DNA from: Patescibacteria group bacterium
GTDB lineage: Bacteria > Patescibacteriota > UBA1384 > XYA2-FULL-43-10 > 1-14-0-10-43-13
DNA: 64,000 nucleotides
Direction: 5' to 3'
Assembly: GCA_041666325.1 (NCBI GenBank)
Contig: JBAYHC010000003.1
Location: forward strand, 31,102 to 95,101
The position numbers and the translations under genes are program-made. Shown here one piece after another: positions 3,401 through 28,160 of this stretch (positions are counted from its first letter, which is position 1; every line of letters starts with the position of its first letter). The notes below the pieces were generated by a model. The model made no database searches, had not been told where the DNA came from, and worked only from the letters and a program-made list of their open reading frames with translations.

Positions 3401-6041
3401 CCAATATTGTTTTGCCAGCGTCCCTAAGCTGCTGTGCTGCGGCAAGCATCTTCGCATCCGTTTCCGAAACAACTTCGGCTTCTTGGCCCAAATACCAATG
3501 GTAGCCAACTAATTCAGAGTGTACAGCACTTCTTCGATTCACTCCTGGTCCCTCAATCGGAGCAAGATCTTCACCCAACCTCTTGATAGCATAAGAAACT
3601 TCTTCAAAGGCAATATCGTCATCTTCCTCTGCACTGTAGGCCTTAGTTTTTCGTGTGCTTTCTGATATCAGATCGCCTCTTGAGTTGTGCATAGGAATGA
3701 ATTCCCACCAACCCTCAGTCAAACGAATGATTATACGTCGCCCCTGCCTCATTTCTCCAAGCGCTTCCTGAAAACGAGGGTCTTTCTTTGACTTTCTGTC
3801 AGACTCATCATAAGAAATAGGACTAAATGATCCCATATCTGTGAAGCCCTCTGGGGTCTCAACTTCAATCGCCTTCCCCTTCTTCGTCTCTGTCTTTGGC
3901 TCTTCTGGGTGATACTCTGTGATTACGGCTAGCAGTTCATCGCCTCCAATCTCTTGTCCCTCGAGCATCAACTGTTCAATTTTTTCGTTTGACGTCAGAT
4001 CGTCAGCGCCAACGATTTCCTTCCTTCTACCTTCATTAATATTATCAAGAGACTCGTTAACCAAAACAATCCGTTCATTCTGATTTAGAACCCCAAATGA
4101 AGAATTCCAACCTTCCCCTGAATCACTCTTCTCTGCAACCAGAACATCACTTCGATCAGGCAAGTAGAGATAGCTTTTATCATTGTTAAATTTGAAGGCG
4201 AAGAATCGTCCGCCATGGAGGGTGATCACCATTGTCCAACTGACAGAGGCATCTAATCCCTCCGGTTTTAGGATGCTATTTTGAAAATCAAAGCAGAGAG
4301 ATCTCAGTGTCTCCCACATCTTCTTCTCATTGATGGTTGACAAGCTGTCATAGGCACCGGCAAGATCTTGAGCAATCTCCTGCAAACGATCCTGGGTCAA
4401 GCCAAGGTGTTCCGCGTGAGAATTAACGGCAATTAATATTTGCTGGTTCCCTCTCACCTGCTCAAACAAGAATGCGGACTGCCCTTCTTTGCCCCGTTCT
4501 TGTCGTCTCTCCCCTGTCGTGTCATAGGGATCAATCCTCTCTTCTCGTCTCTCTGACTCGTATTCTGCCGCATCTTCTTTGTCTCCTGCAGCTTCAACTG
4601 GAGAGGGTTCGCCCTCTGACTTCGGGGACGGTGTCGGAGCGCCCTCAGGTTCAGGACCTGGTGTCGGCGGTGTAGGTGTTGACTGTCCTTCTAGCGCTGA
4701 AGCCTCCTGTGCTTGCGGCGTTCCCTCCACTCTCTCCCCTCTACCTTCTACCCTCCCCCTTCCACCCTCTACTGTTCCAGTTGGCACATTTCCCGAAACA
4801 CCAAACTCTTTCTTTTTGCCGAAGAAATGGGAGGCACTCTCGCCCAGCAAATAAGCAAAAACTCCGCCAAGTTTTAGTTTCTCGGCAGTGCCAAGCCCAG
4901 CCAATAAGGCTTTTGGCATGCGCGCATCCAGGAGGTGACCCGCCTGTCCGTATAGGCTCTTTAAGCTCTCTCCGTCAAGCGTGTTGAATGTGCCACTCTT
5001 TCCTATTTCATTGACACGTTTGATTACGCCTTGGAGCCATTTGAGTTCATCCTGACCATTGGGCATCTGGTCGTAAGCAAACTGCCCCTTGTCCTTGAGA
5101 TTCCAAAAAACTCGATGAGTGTCAGACATCACAGGATTGTTGGGGTCAATTTTGGCAAAGGCCGTGGCTAGATCAGTGTTATTCTGGTCGTAGTTTGAGG
5201 GACCAAGCGGTACACCGGCAAATATTCCGGTCGCAAAAGTAAGCACCGAGGTTGCAACGGAGCGAATTTTTTTGAATCTCTCCTCCCCTGTCTTACCATA
5301 AACATTTTCCGTAATTTGCTCTACTGCCTGTCTTTCTGCTTGCGAAATTTCTAATTGATAACGAGAAAACTTCTCCTCGGTAAGAGTCCCGTCTAACGCT
5401 TCTTGCCTCATGCGAGTAACAACCTCGCCAACAGCTTGCTGCTTCGCGACCTCAGCCGCCGCTCTGTTCTTGCCCCAACCAAAGTGTTCTGCAGCTTGCA
5501 ATAGACCGTCATAGCCCTCTTTCAGACCAACGCCCCAGACAAGCGGAGTAAACACTCCTACACCGGAAAACACTGCCGTGGCGGCAGCGCCAAATCCGCC
5601 AAAAACTTTGGCGCCGATCTTGAGAGCTTTCTTCCAGTCGCCATTCTCGGTATAGATTCCGGCCTTGCGAAGATCGTCATCAATGTTTTCAGAAGGCTCT
5701 CTGGAGCTCCATTTGCCGGCCTGGTCGAACCAGGCACGAATCCGGCCATAGCTCTTGGAAATAGAATCGTCCGACTTATCAAGTCTCGCACCAAAACCAC
5801 CTAGTCCCACCCTTTTGCATACACGAGAAAGCAAAGAGAAGGGCTTGAGTCCCCCGTAGCGCTCGATCGCCCTATCTTGGTCTGTCCGGGCTAGATTGTT
5901 GATCCGTTCGAGAACACGAACCTTGATGTCGCTTCGCTCAACATTCTCGGTCTCTCGCTCTGGCTGAGCCGGAGTGCTTGCAACTTCGCTGGCAACATCT
6001 TCCCTCGCCATCTCTCCATTTTGTATGCTTGTTAAACTCAA
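402..6041 (-). CDS. Giant (1879 aa) membrane-anchored repeat protein, candidate surface adhesin. It has an N-terminal glycine-zipper TM hairpin, a Pro/Thr/Glu-rich linker and three tandem ~105-aa repeats.
   Basis: Uninterrupted 5.6-kb ORF. TTG start 5 nt after GGAGGG. Segments KVFGGFGAAATAVFSGVGVF and SVLTFATGIFAGVPLG are predicted TM. Low-complexity linker TPTPPTPGPEPEGAPTPSPKSEGEPSP. Repeats of the form VFVINSARDKDG...FENKTFKVKI...LFRVDVEIG occur three times. Confidence 0.8.
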   Translation of the reverse strand: MSLTSIQNGEMAREDVASEVASTPAQPERETENVERSDIKVRVLERINNLARTDQDRAIERYGGLKPFSLLSRVCKRVGLGGFGARLDKSDDSISKSYGRIRAWFDQAGKWSSREPSENIDDDLRKAGIYTENGDWKKALKIGAKVFGGFGAAATAVFSGVGVFTPLVWGVGLKEGYDGLLQAAEHFGWGKNRAAAEVAKQQAVGEVVTRMRQEALDGTLTEEKFSRYQLEISQAERQAVEQITENVYGKTGEERFKKIRSVATSVLTFATGIFAGVPLGPSNYDQNNTDLATAFAKIDPNNPVMSDTHRVFWNLKDKGQFAYDQMPNGQDELKWLQGVIKRVNEIGKSGTFNTLDGESLKSLYGQAGHLLDARMPKALLAGLGTAEKLKLGGVFAYLLGESASHFFGKKKEFGVSGNVPTGTVEGGRGRVEGRGERVEGTPQAQEASALEGQSTPTPPTPGPEPEGAPTPSPKSEGEPSPVEAAGDKEDAAEYESERREERIDPYDTTGERRQERGKEGQSAFLFEQVRGNQQILIAVNSHAEHLGLTQDRLQEIAQDLAGAYDSLSTINEKKMWETLRSLCFDFQNSILKPEGLDASVSWTMVITLHGGRFFAFKFNNDKSYLYLPDRSDVLVAEKSDSGEGWNSSFGVLNQNERIVLVNESLDNINEGRRKEIVGADDLTSNEKIEQLMLEGQEIGGDELLAVITEYHPEEPKTETKKGKAIEVETPEGFTDMGSFSPISYDESDRKSKKDPRFQEALGEMRQGRRIIIRLTEGWWEFIPMHNSRGDLISESTRKTKAYSAEEDDDIAFEEVSYAIKRLGEDLAPIEGPGVNRRSAVHSELVGYHWYLGQEAEVVSETDAKMLAAAQQLRDAGKTILAEMVFESKHKAVLVVEYDGAEFRLPVNALVLASGENVELDEDKSSPGKKPFRITRAMGNIDRPGTLLGVDIRFVMFSTGLDAASELKESGDVVGAKVIDSDGEPAIELSHHGKDFVFVINSARDKDGRGIPLKTRRNEFENKTFKVKILEAIESDKEPGKLFRVDVEIGAETEAGPTISDELRIARDLASANEVIHAKIIDSAGEPAIEFRLASGKTHVFIVNAATNSKGEGIHVKGERAKFENKRFNIRITDALEDRDHPGQLFRVNVEVGDEIEPGISEDLRVAREMAGAGDTIEAMIIDLGGYPAAVVEHEGARHTFVINAATNESGERIRFRGKRDKYENKTFKIKITEALEDRDNAGQLYRVNVEINETGAERKIDLSGYNFEDKGPIAGRGLFDFLDAVDRFTVGADEPVLAEREGIKALVTVITRSRDGRPNGFRYRLVDNDLSMTEERESDDMKLLIAPHGRSTWYLGHRKESGDPTPTGPEKRVELESKGLDFRGAVADDLNIFIENSNENLGGTPHGIYVEHEGQIYLVSFVAADRREASLYPVDDALQPNAAEVLVAVDKLEDAAEGYFWYYEKEEYSERDFKVASRLLQSGETISVRVMPSSVDGGKTISFDYDEQTREFDLDSDYEPQKELVESFEIGKEYNIRIVKVNRGKESLERWNVESVGVVLDSSDPGTTDAEFIDHLSGGKITVKPIAIERGSDIVAGIQIGSREFCMNEEYLRRNDTLAERLSGAFQADETIDVRITDTSAGDVPGSVESLSIELAFETPEGFMSKGTLTRGSKKDFVEAVRIALENARNPRVIIRSEKTGFNWEVIGIDSSKIRRIVVDDSFERPGKVYSDEVVIGDLVTSGSFEWFIEESKPADPGAQGNVDLKREADEGESRDKPDIIFATELVGQDYFPAIIKKRTIKGAAKWFIVHMESDREFAVEMSNQELAEDLEDRGHNRICQAKVVGVNPNSRGGLSSVTIEVRDFVIAKEEQGEEGTGV

Positions 6042-6172
6042 CTTGTCCCTCCAAAATAGCTAGTAAGCCCCACCAGGGGGCCCTCTGTGGGGGCGTGTAA
6101 GCGCGTAAGCAGTAAGCTTAAAGCATCGAAATATCCTCGAATTGCTTATTAGCCTACTCGCCTACTTGCTTA

Positions 6173-6508
6173 TTAGCTTTGTTTGTACCCCATCACCTCT
6201 GCCTTGAGACGCAAGGCCTCATCTGCAGCCAATGCGTCCACCTGAATTTCGTGAGAAACAAGAAATTCGACCACTTCTTCATCGGCAGTGTTGACACCGC
6301 CAAGAAGTGATTTAAATTTCTCGAACTCCCCTGTTTCCTCGAGAATGTCAGCAATTCGAAGCATAACCCGACTTCGTAAAGATATAACGAGGTTTTGGAT
6401 CATCGCCTCCTTCTCCTCTGGTGTCAGTGAGTTTAGCTCAAGATAATCAAAAATATCACTTTCTATCAGCTCTTTGATGCTAAGATCTATCGCGCCTGCT
6501 GTCATCAT
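6173..6508 (-). CDS. Small acidic helical protein (~110 aa), paralog of 10605..10922, candidate chaperone or adaptor for the adjacent giant protein.
   Basis: GGAGGG Shine-Dalgarno immediately 5' of ATGATG. The C-terminal half aligns with the other small ORF (SLLGG..N...V.EFL......ALAAD.AL....VMGY versus TLLSEGDGNNVQQFL...AL....MSYLGY). Confidence 0.6.
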   Translation of the reverse strand: MMTAGAIDLSIKELIESDIFDYLELNSLTPEEKEAMIQNLVISLRSRVMLRIADILEETGEFEKFKSLLGGVNTADEEVVEFLVSHEIQVDALAADEALRLKAEVMGYKQS

Positions 6509-6527
6509 CCCTCCATAATTCTTCGAT

Positions 6528-7713
6528 CTAACCCAATATTCTTTCCACCTCTCGCATCACTCTCTCCGGTTCAATATCTGATGCGCCAACACCTTCGTCC
6601 GTATAATAGCTATTCGGAGTGCGCCAAGCCGGATCATAGGTTCCACGGCTTTCCCTATATGCATCGCGAGCCTTCTCGTGCATTACTCGATGAGTGCGTG
6701 CGGTCGACCACTGAACAGGGTTACCTAGAATAATCATGATGTTAGGTGTCCCGAATGCACCAGCGAGATGTCCCAAGCCAGTATCTGGTGTTATCGATAG
6801 GTCAGCCATCTCCATAATCACTGGCATGTTATTTAGCGGCTCTTTTGCCCTAACAATACGATGACCGCCACTACGTAAACGATCAACCATCTCACCATAT
6901 CGTTGTGATTTCTGTGGATCTGGATCATCGATGAACAATATCTGCGCATCGGGATATTTGGCCTTTATCTGCTCCAAAACCTCTGCCCATCTTTCCGGTC
7001 TATACTCTTTTGGCATAACAGATGATCCCGCCGAGATAACTATAAGTTTCCTAGAGCGCTCAAGCCCATACCGATCACGAATCTCGTCGGCACGGGCATC
7101 GAAATCAGCGCCCTTTTCCATGAAATGGTTCTCTGCATTGATATTGTCAACCAGCTTTCGGCCAAGCATAATTTCAAAGTTACGCATAATGCGCGCTGGA
7201 ATAGGATCATATTTGACCGCTCTTTGCTCGTTCTCTGGTGATTCTTCCATCTGCCATGTGTTCCAATCCACAGACATAACACGAGACAAGTCGTTAGCAT
7301 CATTACCGGAAAGCCCAAAGACAGAATAATCTTCAAAATTTTTATGAGCATTAATTATAAACCGTTCTTTGTTGTCCCTGAAGGCACTACCGATTTCCTT
7401 ATAGTCTACTATCTCTACAAGCCCTGGATACTGATCATTGACAGATCGAAACAATCCAGGTTGCGTGGTCACAAGTTTGATAGGTTTGCGATGACCAGTT
7501 TGGTCATAATATCGTTTTATAACCTCGAGAATCGGGACTGTCAGAATTGCATCACCCAACGGATAGTCGAAGATGACAACCACTTCATCTGCTCGCTCCA
7601 AGCCCTTTATTAGTGGTGAATGCTCATAAAACTCTGGTTCGTACGGGGCATCACCAACGGCCGATTCCTCAAGCAAAATATTTTCCGCTTGATAATATGC
7701 ACGGTTCATCTCG
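6528..7713 (-). other. GT9 (heptosyltransferase-like, GT-B fold) domain region of the 1355-aa protein.
   Basis: Motif-based, see the parent CDS. Confidence 0.6.
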
Positions 7714-10595
7714 CGATTGACATACTCATCAATGCCAATATACTTCTCGGTATTGTCGCCAAACCGACGCTTGTTGTGGCGCTCAAGCTCCCGCTTATAA
7801 TGCTCTTGCCGAACAGGATCAAGCCTGTTAAAATTCTTGAGTTCATTGAGACGAACGCGCAAAAACTCATACTTCGGCGGCAATTTTGCCACCAGCTTCT
7901 CTGCTTGATCAGCTGAGTTACGATACCTTGAAATTTCAGTAAAATGCTTCTTGAGACGATCACTGCCATGCTCAGCAGAATAATCTGGAACATGCGGCAA
8001 AGGTTCTGGCGACGGTCCGTGTTCAATCGGTTCGAGTGGGGCGCGACCGATAATTGGCGGCATAAATGGAACATCAACCTGTGAATCTGGTGTTGGCAAG
8101 CTCCAAATCTTGTTGTGCTCCTGTGTCACAACCGGAACCTTGTCGACAATCGTGCTATTGCCGACTCCCGGACCTTCATATGTTGCCAGGATGCGGAAAT
8201 TCTCGCAGCCATCTTTACCCTCGCCAAAAGTTTGCGCCGCCTCGCAGAAGCGGAAATTGGGTACCGGATGGCCATCTTGCAGCATCATCTTGCCGCTGGC
8301 GTCAAATTTAAACAGAACCTTTATCAGAGGATTGTCTTTATCAATAATCGCATTGCCGCGACCGTCTACCGGTACATCATAACAAAACTTCTGGGTCTCC
8401 CTCGACATTGAGAAAAGCATCTTCATGCGATTACCAGATATCAAGCGCTGAGCGTTAGTCGAGAGACTGTCATGATAAGATCCACGTGGAGTCATATGAG
8501 AAACATTGAACACGACATTGCCCTTAGGATCAACGCCATTGCTTCCGCCCCACCACAGCTTAAGTTCATTTTTGTCATAAAGCCCCGGGGTGTTGTTGTC
8601 GTACCACAAGCGGCGATGAATACGATCAAAATATTGCTTGTATTTATCTAATATCTCGCCGGCGCCAACCTTTCTGGTCCTGTCAACCATGGTGGTGATG
8701 GGGGTTTTCCGCTCTTCGACATAGACTCCGCTATCTTTGAGTATTCCTCTCGCTTGCGATGTCAGGTCGCCATTCGCATCAAAAGTTAGGCCTTTTACTG
8801 CCGGGACTGGCTCACCATCCTCAATCTTGACGATGTCATATGTGCCATCAGGGTTCTTGGCGCTAAAATCAAAACCCTTGGGCAAAGTGTGCTTGTGGCC
8901 GAGGAGGTTGACTATTGTCTTTTCATCGCCGGGTGCGGCCTGCGCCTCCTTGCCTATTGCCAGCCAACGATTAAGCTGCTGCAACAGTGTGTGCTTTGGC
9001 TGCTCGCCAAAGGGTACATTGTCCTTGCGGCCAACCCAAGATTCGACTCCTCCCTGAAGTTTGTCATCGAAGAAAGCCCTGACCTCCTGTGCCACCATGC
9101 CAACCCCGACACCAATTGCCAGACCTTTGATGCCGGCCTTCCAGGCCCGGGCACGTTTGAACTTCCGAAATTCTTCATTTTTCTGACGGGTGCCGTCAAC
9201 CATTTGCTCCATTTGGGTCTCTCGAAGCGAGCCAAAGAAATCATCGAAGCTGCGGTTATCGGGAATCATTCCTGCCTGCTCCGCGGCGCTGCGCAGAGCG
9301 CTCTTGGCTTGGTAACGAATCTTGGCAAGCTCGCAACGCTCTCGCTCAACCTTCCTCACATCGGAGTATGTCAGCAAGTCAATTTTGTCTCTATCAGATA
9401 TAGTAACACGCGCCTCAATCTCAGCCAGTTGTGCCATCGCCGACTGGAACTGCTCCGGCGTCAGCTCGCGGGGTTCGCCGACTCTGCCTCCTTCGTAGAC
9501 TGCATCACGGATTCCACTCATCAGCTCTTGAGTGCTCTTGGTTTCGTATCTATATCCCTCCATCTCGACGCGGCGTGGCGAACGATCGGGATCCCATTTT
9601 TTGTTCTTAGCCATATCGCGAAAGTGTTTCTTGCGCTCTTCCTCCGTCCGCTTGGCCTCGGCCATCGCGCCAAAGGCAGCCCCGGCGATAGCGCCACCAA
9701 CGAAGGCACCTGTAGCATAGGCGGCCTTCCTGGCAACTGACTGAGAGAGCTTGGTGCCAACACAATAAGCGAGCGCAACAGCAGAAGCAAGCGTAGTCTC
9801 ATTAACCCATTTGCCAACAGGATTGCGATGGATTCGCTCGACGACGCGGTCGACGGCATTGAATTGTGCTTCGGTGCGCACACCTTCTTTGGCCTTACCA
9901 ACATAGACATCAAATTGCAAGTTAAGCCGCTCAAAGGCAGAATCCTTGTTCTCTTCGCGCTCGATCTTAGTCCTGATCTTATTTGCGACCAACCAAAGAT
10001 TGTCGGCGTACATATCACCGCGCTCGATCACGCCCGGCCTGGCACCCTTGAGAGTTGTGAATAACCTGGCCTTTTCTTGGTCGAAGGTTTCCTTGTCTGG
10101 TAATTCTCCGGTGGCATAATCCTTGATCAACTGGCGTATCTGGTCCTTGATACCGCCGACTTGTTCTCTTTCTTCCGGGTTCTGCTCCTGCGTCTCGTCC
10201 AAAAGCTCGCGCACCTCGCCTGCTTCACGATGTATTGCTTCATCAAATTCTTGTGTAAAACGATCAGCCACCGCTTCCATAGCCTGATCATGGGCTGTCT
10301 TGTCGCCAGACTCATTGGCATATAGATTGCCCGACTCCATAATGTTCTGTCGAGCCTTTCGCACCTCTTTGTCTCGGTAGTATTCTCGAAGCCAATTGTG
10401 CTTCCAGACCGCACGCAGCTTGCCTCTAAACCCCCGGGTATCCTCCGGCTTCGCTGTTAGTTTCTCCTCGCCAGTATCAACGGCATGACTTTCGATAGAA
10501 TCAGAGACATCAACGATTGAGATCTTCTCGACTTGGCGACCATTCTCGGCGGCATCAATTTGATCGGGAGTTGGTTGGTTTCCGCTTTCTGGCAT
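6528..10595 (-). CDS. Large (1355 aa) membrane-associated protein with a C-terminal GT9-family (ADP-heptose heptosyltransferase-like) glycosyltransferase domain.
   Basis: AAGGGGG Shine-Dalgarno 6 nt before the ATG. Start is translationally coupled to the stop of the upstream small ORF. Predicted TM segments GAFVGGAIAGAAFGAMA and GLAIGVGVGMVAQ. The C-terminal ~400 aa carry GT9 hallmark motifs: N-terminal VVVIFDYPLGDAILTVPILEVIK and C-terminal SITPDTGLGHLAGAFGTPNIMI, compared with DSGPMHLAAALGTP in WaaC/WaaF. Confidence 0.8.
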   Translation of the reverse strand: MPESGNQPTPDQIDAAENGRQVEKISIVDVSDSIESHAVDTGEEKLTAKPEDTRGFRGKLRAVWKHNWLREYYRDKEVRKARQNIMESGNLYANESGDKTAHDQAMEAVADRFTQEFDEAIHREAGEVRELLDETQEQNPEEREQVGGIKDQIRQLIKDYATGELPDKETFDQEKARLFTTLKGARPGVIERGDMYADNLWLVANKIRTKIEREENKDSAFERLNLQFDVYVGKAKEGVRTEAQFNAVDRVVERIHRNPVGKWVNETTLASAVALAYCVGTKLSQSVARKAAYATGAFVGGAIAGAAFGAMAEAKRTEEERKKHFRDMAKNKKWDPDRSPRRVEMEGYRYETKSTQELMSGIRDAVYEGGRVGEPRELTPEQFQSAMAQLAEIEARVTISDRDKIDLLTYSDVRKVERERCELAKIRYQAKSALRSAAEQAGMIPDNRSFDDFFGSLRETQMEQMVDGTRQKNEEFRKFKRARAWKAGIKGLAIGVGVGMVAQEVRAFFDDKLQGGVESWVGRKDNVPFGEQPKHTLLQQLNRWLAIGKEAQAAPGDEKTIVNLLGHKHTLPKGFDFSAKNPDGTYDIVKIEDGEPVPAVKGLTFDANGDLTSQARGILKDSGVYVEERKTPITTMVDRTRKVGAGEILDKYKQYFDRIHRRLWYDNNTPGLYDKNELKLWWGGSNGVDPKGNVVFNVSHMTPRGSYHDSLSTNAQRLISGNRMKMLFSMSRETQKFCYDVPVDGRGNAIIDKDNPLIKVLFKFDASGKMMLQDGHPVPNFRFCEAAQTFGEGKDGCENFRILATYEGPGVGNSTIVDKVPVVTQEHNKIWSLPTPDSQVDVPFMPPIIGRAPLEPIEHGPSPEPLPHVPDYSAEHGSDRLKKHFTEISRYRNSADQAEKLVAKLPPKYEFLRVRLNELKNFNRLDPVRQEHYKRELERHNKRRFGDNTEKYIGIDEYVNREMNRAYYQAENILLEESAVGDAPYEPEFYEHSPLIKGLERADEVVVIFDYPLGDAILTVPILEVIKRYYDQTGHRKPIKLVTTQPGLFRSVNDQYPGLVEIVDYKEIGSAFRDNKERFIINAHKNFEDYSVFGLSGNDANDLSRVMSVDWNTWQMEESPENEQRAVKYDPIPARIMRNFEIMLGRKLVDNINAENHFMEKGADFDARADEIRDRYGLERSRKLIVISAGSSVMPKEYRPERWAEVLEQIKAKYPDAQILFIDDPDPQKSQRYGEMVDRLRSGGHRIVRAKEPLNNMPVIMEMADLSITPDTGLGHLAGAFGTPNIMIILGNPVQWSTARTHRVMHEKARDAYRESRGTYDPAWRTPNSYYTDEGVGASDIEPERVMREVERILG

Positions 10596-10604
10596 ATTAC
10601 CCCC

Positions 10605-10922
10605 TTAATAACCTAAGTAGCTCATTCTGAAGTTGATCAAGGCCTGTGCCGTCACCTCGGTAATGTCGGGAATGGCGCGCTGAAGAAACTGTTGAACGTT
10701 ATTACCATCACCCTCACTCAACAGAGTACTAAGCTCTTCGATTTTTTCCGGTGGTGTCGCCGCCAAAAGAGCAGCATGAATATGCTCCTCTACCTTCTCC
10801 CGCAAATCTTTTCTGGCCTCGAATTTGGAGTCCTCATCGAGGTCGCTTAGCGGGCTTTCTTCTATGAGTCTGTCAACAAATATCTCGAGTTCGTCTTTGT
10901 TTTCTTCCCCTGCCATAGCCAT
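10605..10922 (-). CDS. Small acidic helical protein, paralog of 6173..6508.
   Basis: ORF with AAAGGA ribosome-binding site before the ATGGCTATG start. The track start at 10949 is a TTG with no RBS, so 10922 is preferred. Its stop is coupled to the start of the 1355-aa gene. Confidence 0.55.
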   Translation of the reverse strand: MAMAGEENKDELEIFVDRLIEESPLSDLDEDSKFEARKDLREKVEEHIHAALLAATPPEKIEELSTLLSEGDGNNVQQFLQRAIPDITEVTAQALINFRMSYLGY

Positions 10923-10959
10923 TCCTTTCGTAAATAGATATTTACTCAAAAAATCAGTC

Positions 10960-11097: not shown

Positions 11098-11160
11098 AAA
11101 AAGAGGCCCGGTGCGACTCGCTCTACCATGGGGTAGAATGAGTCATTGCACCGGGCCGTG
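11098..11160 (-). terminator. Rho-independent terminator of the GC-island gene.
   Basis: GGCCCGGTGC...GCACCGGGCC stem with a nested TCTACC-ATGG-GGTAGA palindrome, followed on the minus strand by TCTTTTTTATT. Confidence 0.55.
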
Positions 11161-11197: not shown

Positions 11198-12247
11198 CTA
11201 GCCGAAGAAGAAGAATCTGGCGTCCGGCCACCACAGCACGTTCAGCACCGCGAGGGCGAAGATGACGACACCGACGACGATGAGGATCCGAACCCACCTC
11301 GGGATACGTCCGATCCCCATGACCCATTCACTGATGCCGTAGGCGATGCTGGCTGCGAGGAGAAATCCCAGCCCCAGCTTGAAGATGCCCCAGAGCCACT
11401 CCCAGATGGTTCGGCCAGAGCCGGAATCCGGACTAGCCGGTGGGGCTCCTGCCCCGGGCGCGGGTGCGCCGGGCGCCGGTGCTGCTCCGGGTGTTCCGGG
11501 CGTGGGCGTACCAGGTGCCGGGACCACCACGGCAGGCAAATCATACCGCCCAGCGGGCGGAGACGGCCGACCGGTCTCAGCTTCGAGCAACCGCACCCGA
11601 TCATCGAGCGCCTTGTCGTTGAACTGCAACCTCCCTATCTCCCTCTTCCGGTTGCGGTTTGCCTGTTCCAGGCTCGCTACTCTGTCTTTGAGCCGAGAGA
11701 CAGACTGCGACAGCGCATTGAGCCGAAGCTCGAACTTGGCTGCCCAGCGTGCCACCTCGACCCTGACCATCTGCCGGATACTGGCGATCGAAGCGCCGAA
11801 GCGCTGGCCGGCCGACTGGTGTCGGCTGCTGCCGCGCCAGGCATGGCGGCGGCGCTCGGCGTAACGGCGCTTGTCGTAGCGCTTGCCGCCGGCGGTGACG
11901 CCGGTATTGCCACTAGACGGGGCCAGGGCGGCCGAAGGCCGCTTGGCGGGCGAGGTGGTCGTGACCGGCGGTGTACCGGAGCCCGGCCAATCCGGATCGG
12001 GTGCCGTGACCTCCGTGCCCGGGGCAGGTGCCGGCGACGTTGCCGTCGCAGGCGTAGCCTCTGCCGGAGCCGAAGCCTCGGCAGGCGCCTGCGGCGCGGC
12101 TGGCTTCTCGGGCTCGGTCGGCGCCTGGGGCGCGGATCCACCGTCCTCGGTGTAGACCTCGACGGCGCCCGGCGCCGCCATGGCGCCAATGTTGATCGAA
12201 GCGAACACGAGTGCGGCCACGAGGGCCGCCGCGAACAATACCTTCAC
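11198..12247 (-). CDS. Secreted or membrane-anchored Pro/Ala-rich protein encoded in a ~67% GC island. It has a signal peptide and a C-terminal TM segment.
   Basis: GTG start 7 nt after AGAGGGGAG gives MKVLFAAALVAALVFASINIGAMA-AP. Pro-rich tracts APQAPTEPEKPAAPQAPAEASAPAEATPATATSPAPAPG and PAPGTPTPGTPGAAPAPGAPAPGAGAPP. Central coiled-coil-like segment. C-terminal hydrophobic segment ILIVVGVVIFALAVLNVLWW. GC content is far above the flanks. Confidence 0.5.
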   Translation of the reverse strand: MKVLFAAALVAALVFASINIGAMAAPGAVEVYTEDGGSAPQAPTEPEKPAAPQAPAEASAPAEATPATATSPAPAPGTEVTAPDPDWPGSGTPPVTTTSPAKRPSAALAPSSGNTGVTAGGKRYDKRRYAERRRHAWRGSSRHQSAGQRFGASIASIRQMVRVEVARWAAKFELRLNALSQSVSRLKDRVASLEQANRNRKREIGRLQFNDKALDDRVRLLEAETGRPSPPAGRYDLPAVVVPAPGTPTPGTPGAAPAPGAPAPGAGAPPASPDSGSGRTIWEWLWGIFKLGLGFLLAASIAYGISEWVMGIGRIPRWVRILIVVGVVIFALAVLNVLWWPDARFFFFG

Positions 12248-12428
12248 GGTCGTACTCCCCTCTTCTGCCGCCCTTACGGGACGGCGCTTTCGCCGGCCCT
12301 GATGGGCGGCTCGAAGGACCATTTGAATCTGGCCTTCTGGCAATTGAATCCGGCTTTGGCGTTACTTCGCCAGCGCAGATACAATGTGTCAAAAGACAAC
12401 CTTACCCCTTAAAAAAATGCGACAATGT

Positions 12429-12504
12429 GTTGCACGGCTACGTACAGGCGGAGGGGGAACCTGTATTCCATCCCGACAAGTCGGGGGAGGAAGAGCCGTG
12501 CAAC
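12429..12504. ncRNA. Structured RNA-like element, copy 1 of a tandem pair. It is a three-way junction closed by an 11-bp P1 stem.
   Basis: P1 is GTTGCACGGCT/AGCCGTGCAAC. Hairpin 1 is ACAGG-[CGGAGGGGGAA]-CCTGT. Hairpin 2 is built around CCCGAC-AAGT-GTCGGG. On the minus strand it is followed by a short hairpin and a U7 tract (12411-12440). Confidence 0.4.
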
Positions 12505-12603
12505 ACGCTGTCGCACATACACATAATCGACTAACCTTGAAAGTGCCTGCTCCAATTCACCTTCAAGGAGAATAGCATCAGTCCAAAGAAAAAGGGCAAC
12601 ACT

Positions 12604-12685
12604 GCGCTGTATAACCCACCATAGGCGGAGGGGGAACCTACGTCCCTACCCCGATAAATCGGGAAGGGAAGAGATTATACAGCGC
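12604..12685. ncRNA. Structured RNA-like element, copy 2. It has the same architecture as copy 1 with compensatory stem changes.
   Basis: P1 is GCGCTGTATAA/TTATACAGCGC, a completely different sequence from copy 1 but still paired. Hairpin 1 is AGG-[CGGAGGGGGAA]-CCT with an identical 11-nt loop. Hairpin 2 is CCCGAT-AAA-ATCGGG. Confidence 0.4.
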
Positions 12686-12921
12686 GCTGCTGCCCTAAAT
12701 TGTCAAATGCTTTCTGGCGGCATGTGGTATCTCACCGTCAGAACATAGCATTGTATCATATTTTAAAGAGCTTGTCAATAGCTAACGCATTCTTGGCTTT
12801 TGTTTTCGATCTACCCATAGAATAACACATTTTCGGCAAAAACTAAAGACCCCTCGATCGAGAAAATCAGTATTTTATTGTTTACCAGACTAGATAACAA
12901 GCAAATGAATAGTTAACGGTG

Positions 12922-14199
12922 CTAGGTTTGCCGCAACTCTTTCACTAGGGAGAGGTAGACATAAAGGTTATGTATGGTGGTGAGCCTAATGCCTGAGATT
13001 TCATTTGACCGCAAAAGATGGGCAATGTACGCCCGCGAAAAACCACCATTGTCAGCCTCCGCTCGATCTGAGCTGCGGCCGATCTCGCCTCGACTATTGG
13101 ACTCCATCGGTGCTCGACAGACAGGACAACTACAATCTGAATCAATCACATCAGGATCTTCGCGAAACCCAGAGTTCAGCAAATTGACCAATGCATACCG
13201 TTCTTCATCCTTTGTCCAGTTGTTTTTCGTTCTTTTCTGGACGTAAACACTGCCATGTCGCGCCAATCGAGTTGGCAGAACGCAATCGAACATATCCATG
13301 CCAAGTCTGGCCGCTTGGATAATATCATCCGGGGTGCCAACTCCCATGAGATAGCGCTGCTTGTTCTCGGGCAAAATTTCCCCCATCAGCTTAACCGTCT
13401 GCCACATATTGCGGGTTTCGAGGTCAACAGCCAAGCCACCGACTGAATAGCCATCAAAATCCATCTCGATTAATTTTTTGGCACAATCCCGTCTTAGTCC
13501 CTCATCCATTCCGCCCTGAACAATACCATGCAGCATGGGACGAATTGTGAATTTTGAATCATTAATCATGGGCTTGCCATTCTGCGACTCATGCATAATT
13601 CTTGATTCTTGATTCTTGATTCTTGATTCAAAATAGCGTTTTGCCCGTTCGGCCCATCTGATGGTTAATTCTGTTGCATGCTTAATTTCGTTGTAAGATG
13701 CTTTCCCGCTTGGGCAAACATCAAGCGGCATAAGAATATCTACGCCCAAATCAAGCTGGATCTGTATCACCTTCTCCGGAGTGAAAAAATGCTTGGACCC
13801 ATCAAGATGAGACTTGAACTCAACACCATCCTCAGTAATCTTTACTAGCGACTTGTCGCCATTGATTTTGTTCTTGCCCCGAGAATTGTGTCCCGAACCG
13901 AGACTGAAGACCTGGTATCCGCCAGAATCAGTCAAAATCGGCCCGTTCCAGCGCATGAAATCATGCAGGCCACCCAAACTCTTGATCATCTGCTCGCCAG
14001 GACGAAGGTAGAGATGGTAAGTGTTGGACAAAATAATGTTTGCGCCAACGCTTTTTAATTCGTTTGGCAACATCCCTTTGACACTACCGACCGTTCCCAC
14101 AGGCATAAAAAACGGCGTTGGGATAATACCGTGAGGTGTCTCGAGCTCGCCCACCCGAACGCCGCTCTCTAATTTTTTGATGAGTCTAAATTGAGTCAT
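12922..14199 (-). CDS. tgt: Queuine tRNA-ribosyltransferase.
   Basis: Translation begins MTQFRLIKK...GIIPTPFFMPVGTVGSVKGM...ILSNTYHLYLRPG...LTDSGGYQVFSLG and carries a C-terminal CxCxxC..H zinc site. The track ORF extends 31 codons further 5' through non-conserved sequence. Confidence 0.9.
   Translation of the reverse strand: MTQFRLIKKLESGVRVGELETPHGIIPTPFFMPVGTVGSVKGMLPNELKSVGANIILSNTYHLYLRPGEQMIKSLGGLHDFMRWNGPILTDSGGYQVFSLGSGHNSRGKNKINGDKSLVKITEDGVEFKSHLDGSKHFFTPEKVIQIQLDLGVDILMPLDVCPSGKASYNEIKHATELTIRWAERAKRYFESRIKNQESRIMHESQNGKPMINDSKFTIRPMLHGIVQGGMDEGLRRDCAKKLIEMDFDGYSVGGLAVDLETRNMWQTVKLMGEILPENKQRYLMGVGTPDDIIQAARLGMDMFDCVLPTRLARHGSVYVQKRTKNNWTKDEERYALVNLLNSGFREDPDVIDSDCSCPVCRAPMESNSRGEIGRSSDRAEADNGGFSRAYIAHLLRSNEISGIRLTTIHNLYVYLSLVKELRQT
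13565..13600. repeat. (ATTCTTG)n heptanucleotide microsatellite, about 5 copies, inside the tgt coding sequence.
   Basis: attcttgattcttgattcttgattcttgattc read directly from the sequence. Confidence 0.7.
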
Positions 14200-14339
14200 A
14201 TGAGTATTTGTCACTAAGGAGATCGTTATTGCCCACTTGTTATCATCCCGAGTAATGCATATCGAAATCAAGGAATCCCTCCACTCTCGCAATCACACAG
14301 GTCGGGATGACAGGCAAAGGGTTTATACAGCGCATTATA

Positions 14340-14368: not shown

Positions 14369-14399
14369 CCCCCTTCTACTTTCTACTATCCACCATCTA

Positions 14400-14894
14400 C
14401 TACTTGAGCTCAACAGTAGCACCAGCAGCTTCAAGCTTGGCTTTAGCAGCCTCAGCTTCTTCTTTCTTGACACCCTTCAAAAGTTCCTTTGGTGCACCTT
14501 CAACCAAGTCCTTGGCTTCTTTGAGTCCAAGGTCTGGCTTGATTTCACGAACGGCCTTGATTGCATTGATCTTCTGAGCACCGCCGTTGGCGAGAATTAC
14601 ATCAAAGATGGTTTTCTCTTCAACGGGAGCGGCAGCACCAGCTGTAGCGGCACCAACCATAGCGACAGGGGCAGCAGCTGAAACGCCAAAGCGATCTTCA
14701 AGAGCCTTAACAAGCTCGGAAAGCTCGAGTACTGACAAAGTTTCGATCTGCTTGATAAGATCAGCAAACTTGCCGGATACTTCTGCCCTAGCTTCCTCTT
14801 TTGTTTCCTCTGCTAGTTTGTCTGCCACAACCTCGGTTGAGGTGGGATCTTCTGCAACAGCAGCGGTTTCTTCAGTTTTTTCTTCTTCGGCCAT
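14400..14894 (-). CDS. rplL: 50S ribosomal protein L7/L12 with a ~40-aa acidic N-terminal extension.
   Basis: C-terminal sequence [23 protein letters not shown]...[42 protein letters not shown]-terminal dimerisation helix [26 protein letters not shown]. Confidence 0.9.
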
Positions 14895-15497: not shown

Positions 15498-15900
15498 CCG
15501 ACTCCTTTCAGTCGTCACTCCTACAAAATTACAAATAAATCGAAATTACGAAATTACAAATAAATTCATTAAACATTCGTAATTTTGTATTTTCGTGAAG
15601 ATTCGTACTTTCGCAGGTGATTCGGTTATTTAAAAAATGCGGGCAAACCCGCAGACTTCCGTATTTAGCAAATCGTATTGCGTATTTCGAAAAACGAGAT
15701 ACGAACTGCGAATCACCATCTACGAACACATCCTCGGCAGGTAATTAAGCCGGATCCGTATTTCGTGGACCGTATTGCGTATTTCGAAAAACGAGATACG
15801 AACTACGAGTCACTATTTACGAACCAGCGCCTGCTGTCTGCGGATAAGACAAACAAATATTATCAAATTATGTTCTAAACGTCAATAGGGCTGGTAAGGC
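15498..15900 (-). promoter_or_regulatory. rplA-rplJ intergenic region and candidate L10 leader. It contains two ~56-bp direct repeats and a TACGAA-word palindrome.
   Basis: Direct repeats at about 15672-15735 and 15776-15838 read cgtattgcgtatttcgaaaaacgagatacgaact.cga.tcac.at.tacgaac. The position corresponds to the known L10(L12)4 autoregulatory leader location. Confidence 0.3.
15530..15630. repeat. MITE-like imperfect palindrome built from the ~45-bp TACGAAA/TTTCGTA repeat unit, a cargo-less copy of the repeat family that flanks the GxxExxY gene.
   Basis: Left arm cgaaattacgaaattacaaataaa, right arm attcgtaattttgtattttcgtgaagattcgtactttcgcagg. Confidence 0.45.
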
Positions 15901-16027
15901 AGTGGGGCCAGTCAAGCGGTTAAGCTCATAAAGTCATAAGGCCGTAAGGAGAAAAAGACTATTATTACTCTACTGTTCTACTAGCTTTACTGCCTTACTG
16001 GCCTTACTGCTCTATTGCCTTACCGTC

Positions 16028-25601: not shown

Positions 25602-25895
25602 GGGCATCCTTTCTTTCTATTTCTTAACTTTAATTTAATTAGTCTTATTCTATCTTTTCGTCTATCAACAAGCGCTTAAACATAACACGGCCAATACCTG
25701 TTGTCAATAGGCCACATCTCATCCGTGCGTTTCATAATATTTATGATGTCTAGAAAACAATTTTTCCCACCACTGCTTGTCGCTACTTCAAAGCAACAAT
25801 CGTTCTTCTGATGGTTGCTTTGGGTAACGGGCGACTCAAAGAGTCGCCCTGGGATCGGATGGGGACGCTTCTCCTGGAGAATTGTCCCCGGTTTG

Positions 25896-27914: not shown

Positions 27915-28079
27915 CTTCCCTCCCCTTTCTGCGTGATCACCTGCTGTGCAGGCGGTGATCGTCTGTGTGTGTACTATCTTCCTGGCAGCCTGCCCTGCCA
28001 GAAGATCATTCGGACTTAGCCTTCGCTTAGTCCGAGACATATGAAATGATTAATTAATTATTCACGCTAGCTCTCGCTC

Positions 28080-28160
28080 GTCATCCTGAGAGAATCGAAA
28101 GATCTCTTCGTATGCCGCGGGATTCTTCCCCCAACATGTCGGGATCAGAATGACAACTGG
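28080..28160. repeat. Boundary palindromic element A (GTCATCCTGAG ... TCAGAATGACAACTGG) at the right edge of the high-GC block of island 2.
   Basis: Terminal inverted repeat GTCATCCTGAG / CAGAATGAC. The interior has nested palindromes. The same terminal motif is found in element B at 36950-37091. Confidence 0.5.

What the first reader, a model, noticed from the sequence alone, without database searches (positions are those of the whole stretch)
12405..12700. Tandem pair of ~80-nt structured RNA-like elements with compensatory stem covariation and an invariant 11-nt loop (CGGAGGGGGAA), positioned between tgt and the island-1 gene.
Both copies fold into the same three-way junction:
- The closing P1 stem has 11 perfect base pairs in each copy but completely different sequence: GTTGCACGGCT/AGCCGTGCAAC versus GCGCTGTATAA/TTATACAGCGC.
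- Hairpin 1 has a covarying stem (ACAGG/CCTGT versus AGG/CCT) and an identical loop CGGAGGGGGAA.
- Hairpin 2 also covaries, CCCGAC-AAGT-GTCGGG versus CCCGAT-AAA-ATCGGG, and is followed by GGAAG.

This covariation is the classic signature of a selected RNA structure rather than a DNA palindrome.

On the minus strand, copy 1 is followed by a short hairpin and a U7 tract (12411-12440) about 70 nt upstream of the island-1 gene start. That resembles a tandem riboswitch or aptamer with a terminator expression platform. A small sRNA is the alternative.

I could not match it to a riboswitch class I know. Glycine, ZTP, guanidine, fluoride and c-di-GMP consensus cores are all absent.
Basis: seen in the sequence. 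Interest (0 to 1): 0.72.

Follow-up and report, generated by a model that had tools for sequence, protein, structure and literature searches.

The report
New paired small RNA in Patescibacteria
The two look-alike elements are real: they are two modules of a previously undescribed, strongly conserved structured RNA made from the minus strand in a clade of ultra-small (Patescibacteria/CPR) bacteria, and its job is still unknown, although an invariant C-rich loop suggests it pairs with ribosome-binding-site-like sequences.

Summary
Two ~100-nt elements (12419-12514 and 12594-12695) fold as a long closing helix, a three-way junction and a hairpin with an identical loop.

They are RNA read from the minus strand, the strand of tgt. 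A covariance model built only from the two window copies found the same module in all 8 other Patescibacteria genomes I could fetch (tgt 56-66% identical), usually as a pair. It always lies at the same syntenic locus and on the tgt strand.

Across 16 modules:
- 97% of cells pair.
- 25 of 33 pairs show double-sided changes.
- G·U outnumbers A·C 57 to 5.
- The loop CCCCCUCC is invariant.

Near-consensus sigma-70 promoters precede the modules, and a U-tract usually follows the second. The hairpin with UUCG-type loops is variable and sometimes absent, and the junction strands are not conserved. That argues against a riboswitch.

Rfam 15 and the literature searches gave no match. The module is not a dispersed repeat.

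The GC-rich "island" gene downstream is a positional counterpart of Pro/Ala-rich surface-protein genes in relatives, so it is not clearly foreign DNA.

The most likely function is a riboregulator (sibling sRNAs or a leader) acting through an anti-Shine-Dalgarno-like loop. That function is inferred, not shown.

The parts
12750..12778 (-). Promoter-like site TTGACA-17-TACAAT with an extended TG (-35 at 12778-12773, -10 at 12755-12750). The predicted transcription start is near 12743.
   Evidence: scores it 11 of 12. An equivalent 11-12/12 site with the shared context TATTGACA precedes module A in seven other genomes, and the single module in L049. L064 was read by eye.
12712..12743 (-). Small 5' hairpin at the predicted RNA 5' end (UUCUGaCGGUG...GCCGcCAGAA).
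   Evidence: Fold (z -1.7, weak). Counterparts GUUCUGAGGGU...CCUCAGGAGG occur in relatives, and 5 of 8 pairs show double changes. Support is moderate.
12594..12695 (-). It has an outer helix, a 2x2 internal loop, P1, a three-way junction, P2 (CCCGA-UUUA-UCGGG on a UUCCC/GGGA base) and P3 (CGUAGGU-UCCCCCUCC-GCCUAUG). The P3 loop is at 12626-12636.
   Evidence: 114.6 bits; 90.3 bits forward versus 20.7 reverse.
12585..12593 (-). U-rich tract UUUUUCUUU directly after module A. It looks like a terminator. Most relatives have no U-tract after module A.
   Evidence: Sequence. Comparison of tails.
12529..12583 (-). Spacer hairpin. The core CCUUGAAGGUG / CACUUUCAAGG (12568-12535) has a G·U pair that would be A·C on the plus strand.
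   Evidence: -19.5 kcal/mol, z -1.5. L048 and L063 have a hairpin in the corresponding leader of module B. Weak on its own.
12419..12514 (-). It has the same architecture, with P2 CCCGA-CUUG-UCGGG and P3 UACAGGU-UCCCCCUCC-GCCUGUA. The P3 loop is at 12449-12459.
   Evidence: 110.8 bits; 102 bits forward versus 36.3 reverse.
12411..12417 (-). U7 tract one base after the closing helix of module B. Together they form an intrinsic-terminator-like 3' end.
   Evidence: Sequence. A U-tract follows module B in about 7 of 9 genomes and is absent in L064.
12381..12389 (-). ACACAUUGU, a repeat of part of the 3' strand of module B's closing helix. It lies downstream of the terminator. Its role is unknown.
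   Evidence: Read. Similar strings follow module B in relatives, for example GCACAUUAACAAUAU. Not tested statistically.
12255..12285 (-). Leader of the downstream gene: hairpin GCCGUCCC-GUAA-GGGCGGC (12285-12267), then the purine-rich Shine-Dalgarno GAGGGGAG (12262-12255), before the GTG at 12247.
   Evidence: Similar CCGCCC-loop-GGGCGG hairpins lie before the Shine-Dalgarno in L045, L049 and L064. The predicted duplex with the P3 loop is -18.8 to -20.3 kcal/mol, in the top 1-1.4% of windows.
11198..12247 (-). Downstream 'island-1' gene (68% GC). It encodes a signal peptide, a Pro/Ala-rich region, a coiled coil and C-terminal transmembrane segments. It is listed as context and as a candidate regulated gene, not as part of the RNA.
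   Evidence: no Pfam match; no homologue by word search; JGI call of 349 aa; positional counterparts, several GC-enriched.

Best explanation
The two elements are paralogous modules (A = 12594-12695, B = 12419-12514) of a previously uncatalogued structured non-coding RNA. It is transcribed from the minus strand from a near-consensus promoter at 12778-12750 and ends at the helix-plus-U7 terminator at 12411.

Each module is a 21-24-bp closing helix with a conserved 2x2 internal loop, an optional variable side hairpin (P2), and a 7-bp hairpin (P3). P3 displays an invariant C-rich loop, (U)CCCCCUCC, which contains the anti-Shine-Dalgarno core CCUCC.

**Shown:**
- The RNA-level structure.
- The strand.
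- Conservation in 9 of 9 genomes of one Patescibacteria clade.
- A single syntenic locus.
- The promoter and terminator signals.

**Inferred:** The RNA acts as a riboregulator. The exposed C-rich loops base-pair with purine-rich, Shine-Dalgarno-like tracts of mRNAs and block translation initiation. The terminated transcripts work as sibling sRNAs.

The first candidate target is the adjacent surface-protein gene and the gene cluster behind it (DUF5663, giant proteins and VirD4-like genes). Read-through transcripts would carry the same loops in cis.
For: **Structure and strand.**
- The minus strand gives the better consensus fold, -46.1 versus -34.1 kcal/mol.
- In 16 modules from 9 genomes, 97.1% of cells pair and 25 of 33 pairs have changes on both sides.
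- None of 500 shuffles reach any measure, and slid controls give 29-46% paired.
- An independent MAFFT/RNAalifold alignment gives 22 of 31 compensatory pairs.
- Pair counts are 406 Watson-Crick, 57 G·U and only 5 A·C.
- Reverse-strand model scores are 3-4 times lower.
- P2 loops are RNA-type tetraloops such as UUCG, GCAA and CUUG.

**Homologues.**
- The model built from the two window copies alone hits L045, L046, L048, L049 and L051 at E 1e-10 to 1e-12.
- The refined model hits L062, L063 and L064 at E 1e-11 to 1e-19.
- All hits lie on the tgt strand, directly upstream of a signal-peptide protein gene.

**Discrete transcription units.**
- Promoters scoring 11-12/12 precede module A (or the single module in L049) in all genomes. 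A second one precedes module B in L046, L048, L062 and L063.
- A U-tract follows module B in about 7 of 9 genomes.

**Functional site.**
- CCCCCUCC is invariant in all 16 loops, while the stems around it covary.
- Predicted loop-to-RBS duplexes for the adjacent gene fall in the top 1-5% of windows in WIN, L045, L046 and L051.

**Not coding.** Reading frames through the conserved loop differ between copies, and stop codons interrupt them (read).
Against: - No expression data exist. Promoters and terminators are consensus matches only.
- Complementarity between the loop and the adjacent gene's RBS is unremarkable in 5 of 9 genomes (L048, L049, L062, L063, L064). Any C-rich loop will score well against strong Shine-Dalgarno sequences.
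- No other targets could be searched, because whole genomes were not available.
- The strongly conserved lower helix with its internal loop is not explained by a seed-pairing model and suggests a protein partner.
- No promoter scoring 10/12 or better lies between module B and the downstream gene in any genome. L064 has no U-tract after module B. Both points fit a cis-acting leader at least as well.
- Whether these bacteria have an sRNA chaperone is unknown.
Confidence: 0.42

Rival explanations
1. The RNA is a cis-acting leader of the downstream surface-protein / T4SS-like operon. The modules are transcribed as the 5' part of the operon mRNA. They would control it by regulated termination at the helix-plus-U-tract, by sequestering the Shine-Dalgarno through the C-rich loops, or by modifying RNA polymerase for processive antitermination through a very long operon, as put and EAR RNAs do. 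The sensor would be a protein or RNA factor rather than a metabolite.
For: - The RNA sits directly upstream of, and co-oriented with, the same positional gene in 9 of 9 genomes, at 57-411 nt.
- In L062 it follows the cluster rather than tgt.
- No promoter scoring 10/12 or better lies between module B and the gene in any genome.
- L064 lacks a U-tract after module B, so there the modules should lie within the 5' UTR.
- A conserved hairpin precedes the Shine-Dalgarno, and strong loop-to-RBS complementarity is seen in 4 of 9 genomes.
- The operon encodes giant proteins of 1355 and 1879 aa.
Against: - A second full-consensus promoter sits between modules A and B in 4 genomes, which is odd for a single leader.
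- A strong helix-plus-U6-7 terminator follows module B in most genomes.
- No alternative (antiterminator) pairing was found.
- All nine genomes are syntenic, so co-orientation is not nine independent observations.
- Weak or non-sigma-70 promoters for the gene cannot be excluded.
- There is no similarity to EAR, put or any leader in Rfam.
Confidence: 0.3
2. The RNA is a protein-binding housekeeping or scaffold RNA. It could be a sponge or partner of an RNA-binding protein that recognises the conserved lower helix with its internal loop, or the C-rich loop. Its genomic neighbours would then be incidental.
For: - The conservation pattern is typical of protein-recognised RNAs: the sequence-conserved helix GCGrCAGCGUGYUG / CAGCACAGUGYCGC with a fixed 2x2 internal loop, an invariant apical loop, and a dispensable P2.
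- Full-consensus promoters suggest high expression.
- There is one locus per genome in the DNA examined.
Against: - No candidate partner protein was identified.
- No resemblance to SRP, 6S, Y, RNase P or tmRNA was detected by Rfam models.
- Two tandem copies and strict linkage to one gene cluster are more typical of regulators.
Confidence: 0.15
3. The pair is a tandem riboswitch. Each three-way junction would be an aptamer for a small ligand, and ligand binding would stabilise P1 and so the terminator.
For: - Tandem three-way junctions followed by a U-tract, upstream of a gene, resemble the tandem glycine architecture in outline.
- The structure is strongly conserved.
Against: - Junction strands J1/2, J2/3 and J3/1 vary in length and sequence.
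- P2 is absent in L048-A and L063-A.
- The conserved nucleotides lie in a helix and an apical loop, not in a pocket.
- P1 plus the outer helix is 21-24 bp and would form without a ligand.
- Several modules have their own promoters.
- The downstream genes are divergent surface proteins with no metabolic or transport theme.
- No Rfam riboswitch model matches.
Confidence: 0.05
4. The elements are DNA-level features: REP/MITE-like palindromes, recombination or attachment sites marking the edge of a foreign GC-rich island, or merely elaborate terminators with no further function.
For: - They have long, near-perfect inverted repeats.
- They sit at a sharp GC boundary next to a 68%-GC gene.
- Both window copies are followed by U-tracts.
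Against: - The 57:5 excess of G·U over A·C is strand-specific.
- Covariation with RNA-type tetraloops is seen.
- No further copies occur in the 64-kb window or in about 128 kb from 8 other genomes.
- There are no hits in phage or plasmid collections.
- The locus is syntenic across genomes whose tgt is only 56-66% identical, and the 'island' gene has positional counterparts there.
- The invariant loop is not needed for termination.
Confidence: 0.03

Closest known systems
C-rich-loop ('UCCC motif') sRNAs of Firmicutes, such as RsaE/RoxS (from my own knowledge of the literature, not tested beyond Rfam)
   Same: Short RNAs with their own promoters and intrinsic terminators. They carry conserved unpaired C-rich motifs in hairpin loops that can pair with Shine-Dalgarno sequences, and have more than one such motif per locus.
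   Different: No sequence or structure homology was found; Rfam models do not hit. Here each motif sits on a long conserved closing helix with a three-way junction. The host is Patescibacteria. Targets and pairing have not been demonstrated.
CcsR / 'cuckoo' tandem sRNAs of Alphaproteobacteria (CCUCCUCCC loops); from my own knowledge
   Same: Tandem arrays of homologous stem-loop modules with anti-Shine-Dalgarno-like C-rich loops at one locus, next to a small protein gene.
   Different: The fold differs: simple hairpin pairs there, versus a long helix with a three-way junction here. The loop sequence and the phylum also differ. Those arrays are co-transcribed downstream of a DUF1127 gene, whereas here the modules lie upstream of a secreted-protein gene and have their own promoters.
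Tandem glycine riboswitch
   Same: Two adjacent three-way-junction domains followed by a terminator, upstream of a gene.
   Different: There is no conserved junction core, one arm is dispensable, there is no switching platform and no metabolic gene association. The Rfam glycine model does not match.
Processive-antitermination RNAs (phage HK022 put, Bacillus EAR); from my own knowledge
   Same: Compact conserved structures placed at the start of very long operons for surface or exopolysaccharide-type products. They act in cis.
   Different: No homology was detected by Rfam. Here a strong terminator follows directly, and separate promoters precede each module. No evidence of any interaction with RNA polymerase exists.
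REP/BIME or MITE palindromic repeats
   Same: Imperfect palindromes of about 100 nt in intergenic DNA, sometimes acting as terminators.
   Different: These elements occupy a single syntenic locus and are not dispersed. They show strand-specific G·U pairing and compensatory changes.

Membership tests
Any described RNA family (Rfam 15) | A score at or above the family's gathering threshold in cmscan. | tested here: not met
   There were 0 hits in the whole window. In 12300-12950 only chance-level hits appeared, at E of 1.3 or more and bits far below threshold. Seven related loci gave only an L10 leader elsewhere. The L063 locus at E up to 5 gave nothing relevant.
Riboswitch (generic, including tandem glycine-type) | Highly conserved nucleotides forming a ligand pocket at the junction or internal loops, with all aptamer helices present in all members. 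| tested here: not met
   Junction strands vary in length and sequence. P2 is missing in L048 7447-7512 and L063 11352-11428. Conservation lies in the lower helix and the P3 loop.
Riboswitch (generic) | An expression platform with mutually exclusive pairings (terminator/antiterminator, or Shine-Dalgarno sequestration). | tested here: inconclusive
   The terminator stem is the 21-24-bp closing helix itself. No upstream competitor was seen by eye. A partial repeat of the 3' strand lies downstream of the U-tract (12381-12389), and its role is unknown.
Riboswitch (generic) | Ligand binding. | not testable with these tools
   This needs in-line probing, ITC or termination assays.
Trans-acting base-pairing sRNA with a C-rich seed (functional class; RsaE/RoxS-like) | Own promoter and a Rho-independent terminator delimiting a short transcript. 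| tested here: met
   Sequence signals only. There is an 11/12 promoter at 12778-12750 and a helix plus U7 at 12411-12417. The same holds in relatives, with a second promoter before module B in 4 genomes. No expression data exist.
Trans-acting base-pairing sRNA with a C-rich seed | A conserved, unpaired seed sequence. | tested here: met
   CCCCCUCC is invariant in 16 of 16 P3 loops, while the P3 stem covaries.
Trans-acting base-pairing sRNA with a C-rich seed | Conserved complementary target sites in mRNAs. | tested here: inconclusive
   Only the adjacent gene could be tested. It ranks in the top 1-5% in 4 of 9 genomes and is unremarkable in 5 of 9. Whole genomes were not available.
RsaE/RoxS family proper (homology) | A match to the family covariance model. 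| tested here: not met
   No Rfam hit.
Intrinsic (Rho-independent) terminator | A stable GC-containing helix followed immediately by a U-tract on the transcribed strand. | tested here: met
   Module B has UGUCGC-A-U7 at 12424-12411. Module A has UGCCC-UUUUUCUUU at 12598-12585. The simple scanner misses them because the 'loop' is a whole three-way junction.
REP/MITE-type dispersed palindromic repeat | Many copies at unrelated loci in a genome. | tested here: not met
   With filters off, the model search of the 64-kb window finds only the two copies. In 192 kb from 9 genomes, hits occur only at the one syntenic locus. Complete genomes were not searched.
REP/MITE-type dispersed palindromic repeat | DNA-level symmetry with no strand-specific pairing rules. 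| tested here: not met
   57 G·U versus 5 A·C cells. Forward-strand scores are 3-4 times the reverse-strand scores.

The most novel reading that the evidence does not exclude
The RNA would be a clade-wide, highly expressed mimic of the 16S anti-Shine-Dalgarno. Two displayed CCUCC-containing loops would compete with ribosomes for strong Shine-Dalgarno sites. That would gate expression of the conserved surface-protein / giant-protein / VirD4-like cluster, which these episymbiotic, genome-reduced bacteria may use to contact hosts. It would be the first riboregulator defined in the Candidate Phyla Radiation. A variant of the same reading is that the pair is a new cis-acting sensor, either a riboswitch or an antitermination RNA.
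Probability: 0.12. Interest if true: 0.8.

Novelty: new member of a known kind. Interest (0 to 1): 0.62.

Why it matters
Almost nothing is known about RNA-based regulation in Patescibacteria (CPR). These are uncultured, genome-reduced bacteria, and in my searches of Rfam and the literature I found no family specific to them.

This candidate RNA family is unusually well supported. The evidence is covariation across nine genomes, an invariant loop and textbook promoters.

It sits at the head of a conserved cluster of surface proteins, giant proteins and VirD4-like proteins. That gives a concrete handle on how these organisms control a probably host-facing apparatus, and a ready-made covariance model for annotating their genomes.

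It also corrects a tempting misreading. The GC-rich 'island' next to the RNA is a compositionally odd but positionally conserved gene, not obviously foreign DNA.

Tried and rejected
**1. Pattern scans of the big collections.**
- CGGAGGGGGAA..GGAAGAG in viral contigs gave 25 hits, all chance matches in coding DNA.
- GGCGGAGGGGGAACC..CCCGA..TCGGG in genome contigs gave one chance hit, inside an ArsR-type gene.
- GGCGGAGGGGGAACC..GGAAGAG in metagenome contigs gave 16 chance hits.
- In hindsight these patterns required P2 and junction bases that turned out to be specific to the window.
- Neither collection contains the window itself.
- A later viral scan with family-wide features gave 9 chance hits and no model match.

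**2. Exact look-ups.** Look-ups of the window's tgt failed twice. A cluster mate, P0121, gave the same organism from ENA. The downstream protein gave the JGI contig. Both are 100% identical to the window, so they carry no comparative information.

**3. BLAST.** A search of the locus against phage and plasmid collections found nothing relevant.

**4. Homologues of the downstream protein.** Only the protein itself was found.

**5. A third, diverged copy upstream of the second GC-rich island (28041-28190).** That region is structured on the minus strand (z -3.05 versus 0.0). The model matches only a generic hairpin there, at E about 2.5 on both strands. Rejected as a family member.

**6. Coding potential.** ORFs can be read through single modules, such as 26 aa in module B. 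The conserved loop falls in different frames in different copies, and stop codons intervene. Rejected.

**7. Mimicry of 16S helix 45.** Some P3 stems read CGUAGG/CCUGCG, as in helix 45. This comparison is from memory. The stem covaries freely across the family, so I treat it as coincidence.

**8. Pairing of the loop with the purine-rich stretch after the 5' hairpin.** This stretch is AGGAGG in several genomes but is not conserved in the window or in L063. Dropped.

**9. Literature.** Keyword and sequence-string searches found nothing on this RNA.
Full report
**1. The observation**

There are two elements. Each has an 11-bp perfect stem: GTTGCACGGCT/AGCCGTGCAAC at 12430-12440 with 12494-12504, and GCGCTGTATAA/TTATACAGCGC at 12605-12615 with 12676-12686.

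Each stem encloses two hairpins. The first hairpin carries the identical string CGGAGGGGGAA, at 12449-12459 and 12626-12636. These are the only exact occurrences in the window.

Each element also has an outer helix beyond a small internal loop: GCGACA/TGTCGC and GGGCA/TGCCC. The full modules therefore span 12419-12514 and 12594-12695.

Folded alone, they give -49 to -59 kcal/mol, with z-scores of -5.2 to -7.8 against dinucleotide shuffles.

**2. Strand**

The consensus fold of the two copies is clearly better on the minus strand: -46.1 kcal/mol with 33 pairs, against -34.1 with 26 pairs on the plus strand. Several pairs are G·U on the minus strand and would be A·C on the plus strand.

On the minus strand, module B is followed by A-U7 (12418-12411) and module A by UUUUUCUUU (12593-12585).

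A promoter-like site, TTGACA-17-TACAAT with an extended TG, lies at 12778-12750 on the minus strand (11/12). It sits about 50 nt upstream of module A.

All neighbouring genes are on the minus strand:
- L1 at 16825-16028
- L10
- L7/L12 at 14921-14400
- tgt at 14202-12922
- the RNA locus
- the 68%-GC gene at 12247-11198

**3. Source organism**

The window's tgt protein is 100% identical to a protein annotated from a Patescibacteria-group MAG (MFA5927513.1 / MFA6531961.1).

The same locus is found, base for base, in an ENA assembly (687-kb contig) and in a JGI metagenome contig. The arrangement is therefore not peculiar to one assembly, although the three may share reads.

The next closest tgt is only 66% identical. 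No close relatives are available.

**4. Searches that failed**

Rfam 15 has no match at gathering or permissive thresholds.

My three pattern scans of viral, genome and metagenome collections returned only chance hits. I had included bases from P2 and the junction that later proved specific to the window.

Phage and plasmid BLAST searches found nothing relevant.

**5. The breakthrough: synteny plus a covariance model**

I fetched the DNA around distant tgt homologues. I then searched it with a model built only from the two window copies (R1).

Every genome examined has the module, on the tgt strand:

| Locus | Coordinates | Score / E-value |
|---|---|---|
| L045 | 7278-7366 and 7380-7466 | E 1e-11 and 2e-12 |
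| L046 (= L047, annotated Berkelbacteria) | 11294-11383 and 11503-11591 | E 2e-10 |
| L048 | 7700-7791 | E 3e-12 |
| L048 (P2-less copy) | 7447-7512 | 28.8 bits with R2 |
| L049 | 6451-6550 | E 6.5e-12 |
| L051 | 6365-6455 and 6520-6609 | E 8e-13 and 2e-12 |
| L062 | 14209-14298 and 14372-14466 | 74.7 and 77.7 bits with R2 |
| L063 | 11352-11428 (no P2) and 11610-11705 | 48.9 and 79.1 bits with R2 |
| L064 | 9863-9949 and 9964-10057 | E 2e-14 and 3e-13 |

That is 9 of 9 genomes, with tgt identities of 56-66%.

No other copy appears in the 64-kb window with filters off. None appears elsewhere in the 192 kb searched.

**6. Covariation**

On the 16-module alignment (A7):
- 97.1% of cells form standard pairs.
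- 25 of 33 pairs have changes on both sides, in 108 cells.
- No shuffle out of 500 reaches any of the five measures.
- Sliding the partners by 1-3 columns drops pairing to 29-46%.

That alignment was fitted to the model. An independent MAFFT/RNAalifold run on ten sequences recovers the closing helix and P3, with 22 of 31 compensatory pairs.

Pair counts are 406 Watson-Crick, 57 G·U, 5 A·C and 9 other. This is decisive for an RNA read from this strand. Forward model scores are 3-4 times the reverse-strand scores.

**7. Anatomy of a module**

- **Closing helix.** Its proximal part is conserved in sequence (5' GCGrCAGCGUGYUG, 3' CAGCACAGUGYCGC), with a fixed 2x2 internal loop. Its distal part is freely covarying.
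- **P2.** This hairpin varies in length, has UUCG, GAUUUAUC, GCAA or CUUG loops, and is absent in two members.
- **P3.** This is a 7-bp stem (consensus CGUAGGU/GCCUrYG, usually closed by U·G). Its 9-10-nt loop contains CCCCCUCC in all 16 modules.
- **Junction strands.** These are short and not conserved.

The three-way junction as such is not the conserved feature.

**8. Transcription signals across the family**

- A site scoring 11-12/12, in the shared context TATTGACA-N17-TAtAAT, precedes module A in all nine genomes (L064 was read by eye). In L049 it precedes the single module.
- A second full-consensus promoter lies between A and B in L046, L048, L062 and L063.
- Module B is followed by a U-tract in about seven of nine genomes. 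L064 has none.
- Module A is followed by a U-tract only in the window.
- Between module B and the next gene, no site reaches 10/12 in any genome.
- A small 5' hairpin (GUUCUGAGGGU...CCUCAGGAGG; 12743-12712 in the window) follows the first promoter, with moderate comparative support.

**9. Genomic association**

In every genome the RNA lies 57-411 nt upstream of, and co-oriented with, a gene for a protein with a signal peptide, a coiled-coil or low-complexity region and a transmembrane segment.

That gene is followed by a DUF5663 protein and very large proteins. Where the contig extends far enough, DUF8128 / VirD4-like coupling proteins follow too.

In L062 three genes separate tgt from the RNA. 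The link is therefore to the downstream cluster, not to tgt.

The downstream proteins are barely alignable, with a best pairwise E of 0.001-0.003. Several are markedly more GC-rich than their surroundings:

| Genome | Gene GC | Locus GC |
|---|---|---|
| Window | 0.68 | 0.48 |
| L049 | 0.69 | 0.43 |
| L048 | 0.65 | 0.49 |
| L045 | 0.57 | 0.44 |

The window's 'island-1' is thus a positional counterpart with Pro/Ala-rich composition. It is not evidently an insertion of foreign DNA.

**10. Mechanism: what is shown and what is inferred**

Shown:
- A conserved, strand-specific RNA structure at a single syntenic locus, with promoter and terminator signals and an invariant exposed C-rich loop.

Inferred:
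- The loop contains the anti-Shine-Dalgarno core CCUCC. The obvious function of such a loop is pairing with purine-rich, Shine-Dalgarno-like sequences.
- This is how C-rich-loop sRNAs of Firmicutes (RsaE/RoxS type) and the tandem CcsR RNAs of Alphaproteobacteria are understood to work. That statement rests on my own knowledge.

I tested the nearest candidate target, the RBS region of the adjacent gene. Predicted duplexes are in the top 1-5% of all windows in the window genome, L045, L046 and L051. They are ordinary in L048, L049, L062, L063 and L064. This is a lead, not support.

**11. Rival readings**

The main rival is a cis-acting leader of the operon. It is favoured by the absence of a good promoter after module B, by L064 lacking a terminator, and by a conserved hairpin before the Shine-Dalgarno (12285-12267 in the window). 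It is disfavoured by the internal promoters and the strong terminators.

A protein-binding role is suggested by the sequence-conserved lower helix.

A metabolite riboswitch is unlikely, for the reasons in section 7 and because the downstream genes have no metabolic theme.

DNA-level explanations are effectively excluded (sections 5 and 6).

**12. Novelty**

No Rfam 15 family matches the window or seven related loci. Keyword and sequence-string searches of the paper library found nothing.

This is a new RNA family of a familiar kind, a bacterial structured small RNA or leader, in a phylum where riboregulation is essentially unexplored.

My confidence that it is a genuine, functional, minus-strand structured RNA is about 0.95. 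My confidence in the specific seed-pairing mechanism is about 0.4.

Noticed in passing
window 11198-12322 (minus strand): The 68%-GC 'island-1' gene has a signal peptide, a Pro/Ala-rich stretch, a coiled coil and C-terminal transmembrane segments. It has no Pfam match and no homologue by word search. The genes at the same position in relatives have the same layout, and several are also far more GC-rich than their genomes. So this appears to be a fast-evolving, compositionally extreme surface-protein gene rather than imported DNA.
   Followed up: partly
window 25860-28040 (minus strand), leader 28041-28190: A second GC-rich patch (62-66% GC) holds two ORFs, 316 aa and 397 aa, with signal-peptide-like N-termini and no Pfam match. 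Its upstream leader is structured on the minus strand only (z -3.05 versus 0.0 on the plus strand). The RNA model shows it is not a member of the family.
   Followed up: partly
window 11108-11160 (minus strand): A very stable, long, interrupted hairpin followed by UCUUUUUU lies right after the stop of the GC-rich gene (-41.5 kcal/mol, z -8.0). It is probably that gene's terminator. Long interrupted terminator helices seem typical of this locus.
   Followed up: partly
window 12381-12389, and after module B in L045, L046, L048, L049, L051: A short string resembling the 3' strand of the closing helix recurs just downstream of the terminator: ACACAUUGU in the window and GCACAUUAACAAUAU-like in relatives. 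I have no explanation for it. It could be a remnant of a third module, a binding site or an alternative pairing partner.
   Followed up: no
window 12267-12285; L045 about 7565-7581; L049 about 6885-6905; L064 about 10205-10222: A conserved small hairpin, CCGYCC-tetraloop-GGGYGG, sits immediately before the Shine-Dalgarno of the downstream gene. Its 3' half (GGCGG) is complementary to the 3' side of P3 (CCGCC). In L064 GGUGG pairs with module A's CCACC, but L063 breaks the pattern.
   Followed up: partly
L045, L062, L064 (downstream of the RNA); window 402-10949: A conserved gene cluster follows the RNA: the small secreted protein, giant proteins of 743 to more than 1879 aa, DUF5663, a protein of about 350-460 aa, DUF8128 / T4SS coupling-protein-like (VirD4/TraG) genes, and a sigma-70 region-4/HARE-HTH protein. 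It looks like a clade-specific surface or DNA-transfer apparatus.
   Followed up: no
L049, L051, L063 spacers (for example L051 6323-6350, L063 11733-11760): A short motif, (U/C)ACAGAU(A/U), is repeated two to three times in the spacers around the modules in some relatives. It is not obvious in the window.
   Followed up: no
window 15519-16027; L051 2079-2211: Rfam detects the ribosomal L10 leader between L1 and L10 in L051 (47.9 bits). It detects nothing in the equivalent 510-nt gap of the window. The window may carry a diverged L10 leader.
   Followed up: no
L044, L062, L063: Three different Patescibacteria genomes carrying this RNA come from the same JGI metagenome (3300037810). Two of their contigs are 868-972 kb long. 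That sample would be a good place to look for expression data.
   Followed up: no
window 12922-14202: The window's tgt is 425 aa, longer than many homologues of 366-400 aa because of internal insertions, including a low-complexity stretch around NQESRIMHESQNGKPMINDSK.
   Followed up: no
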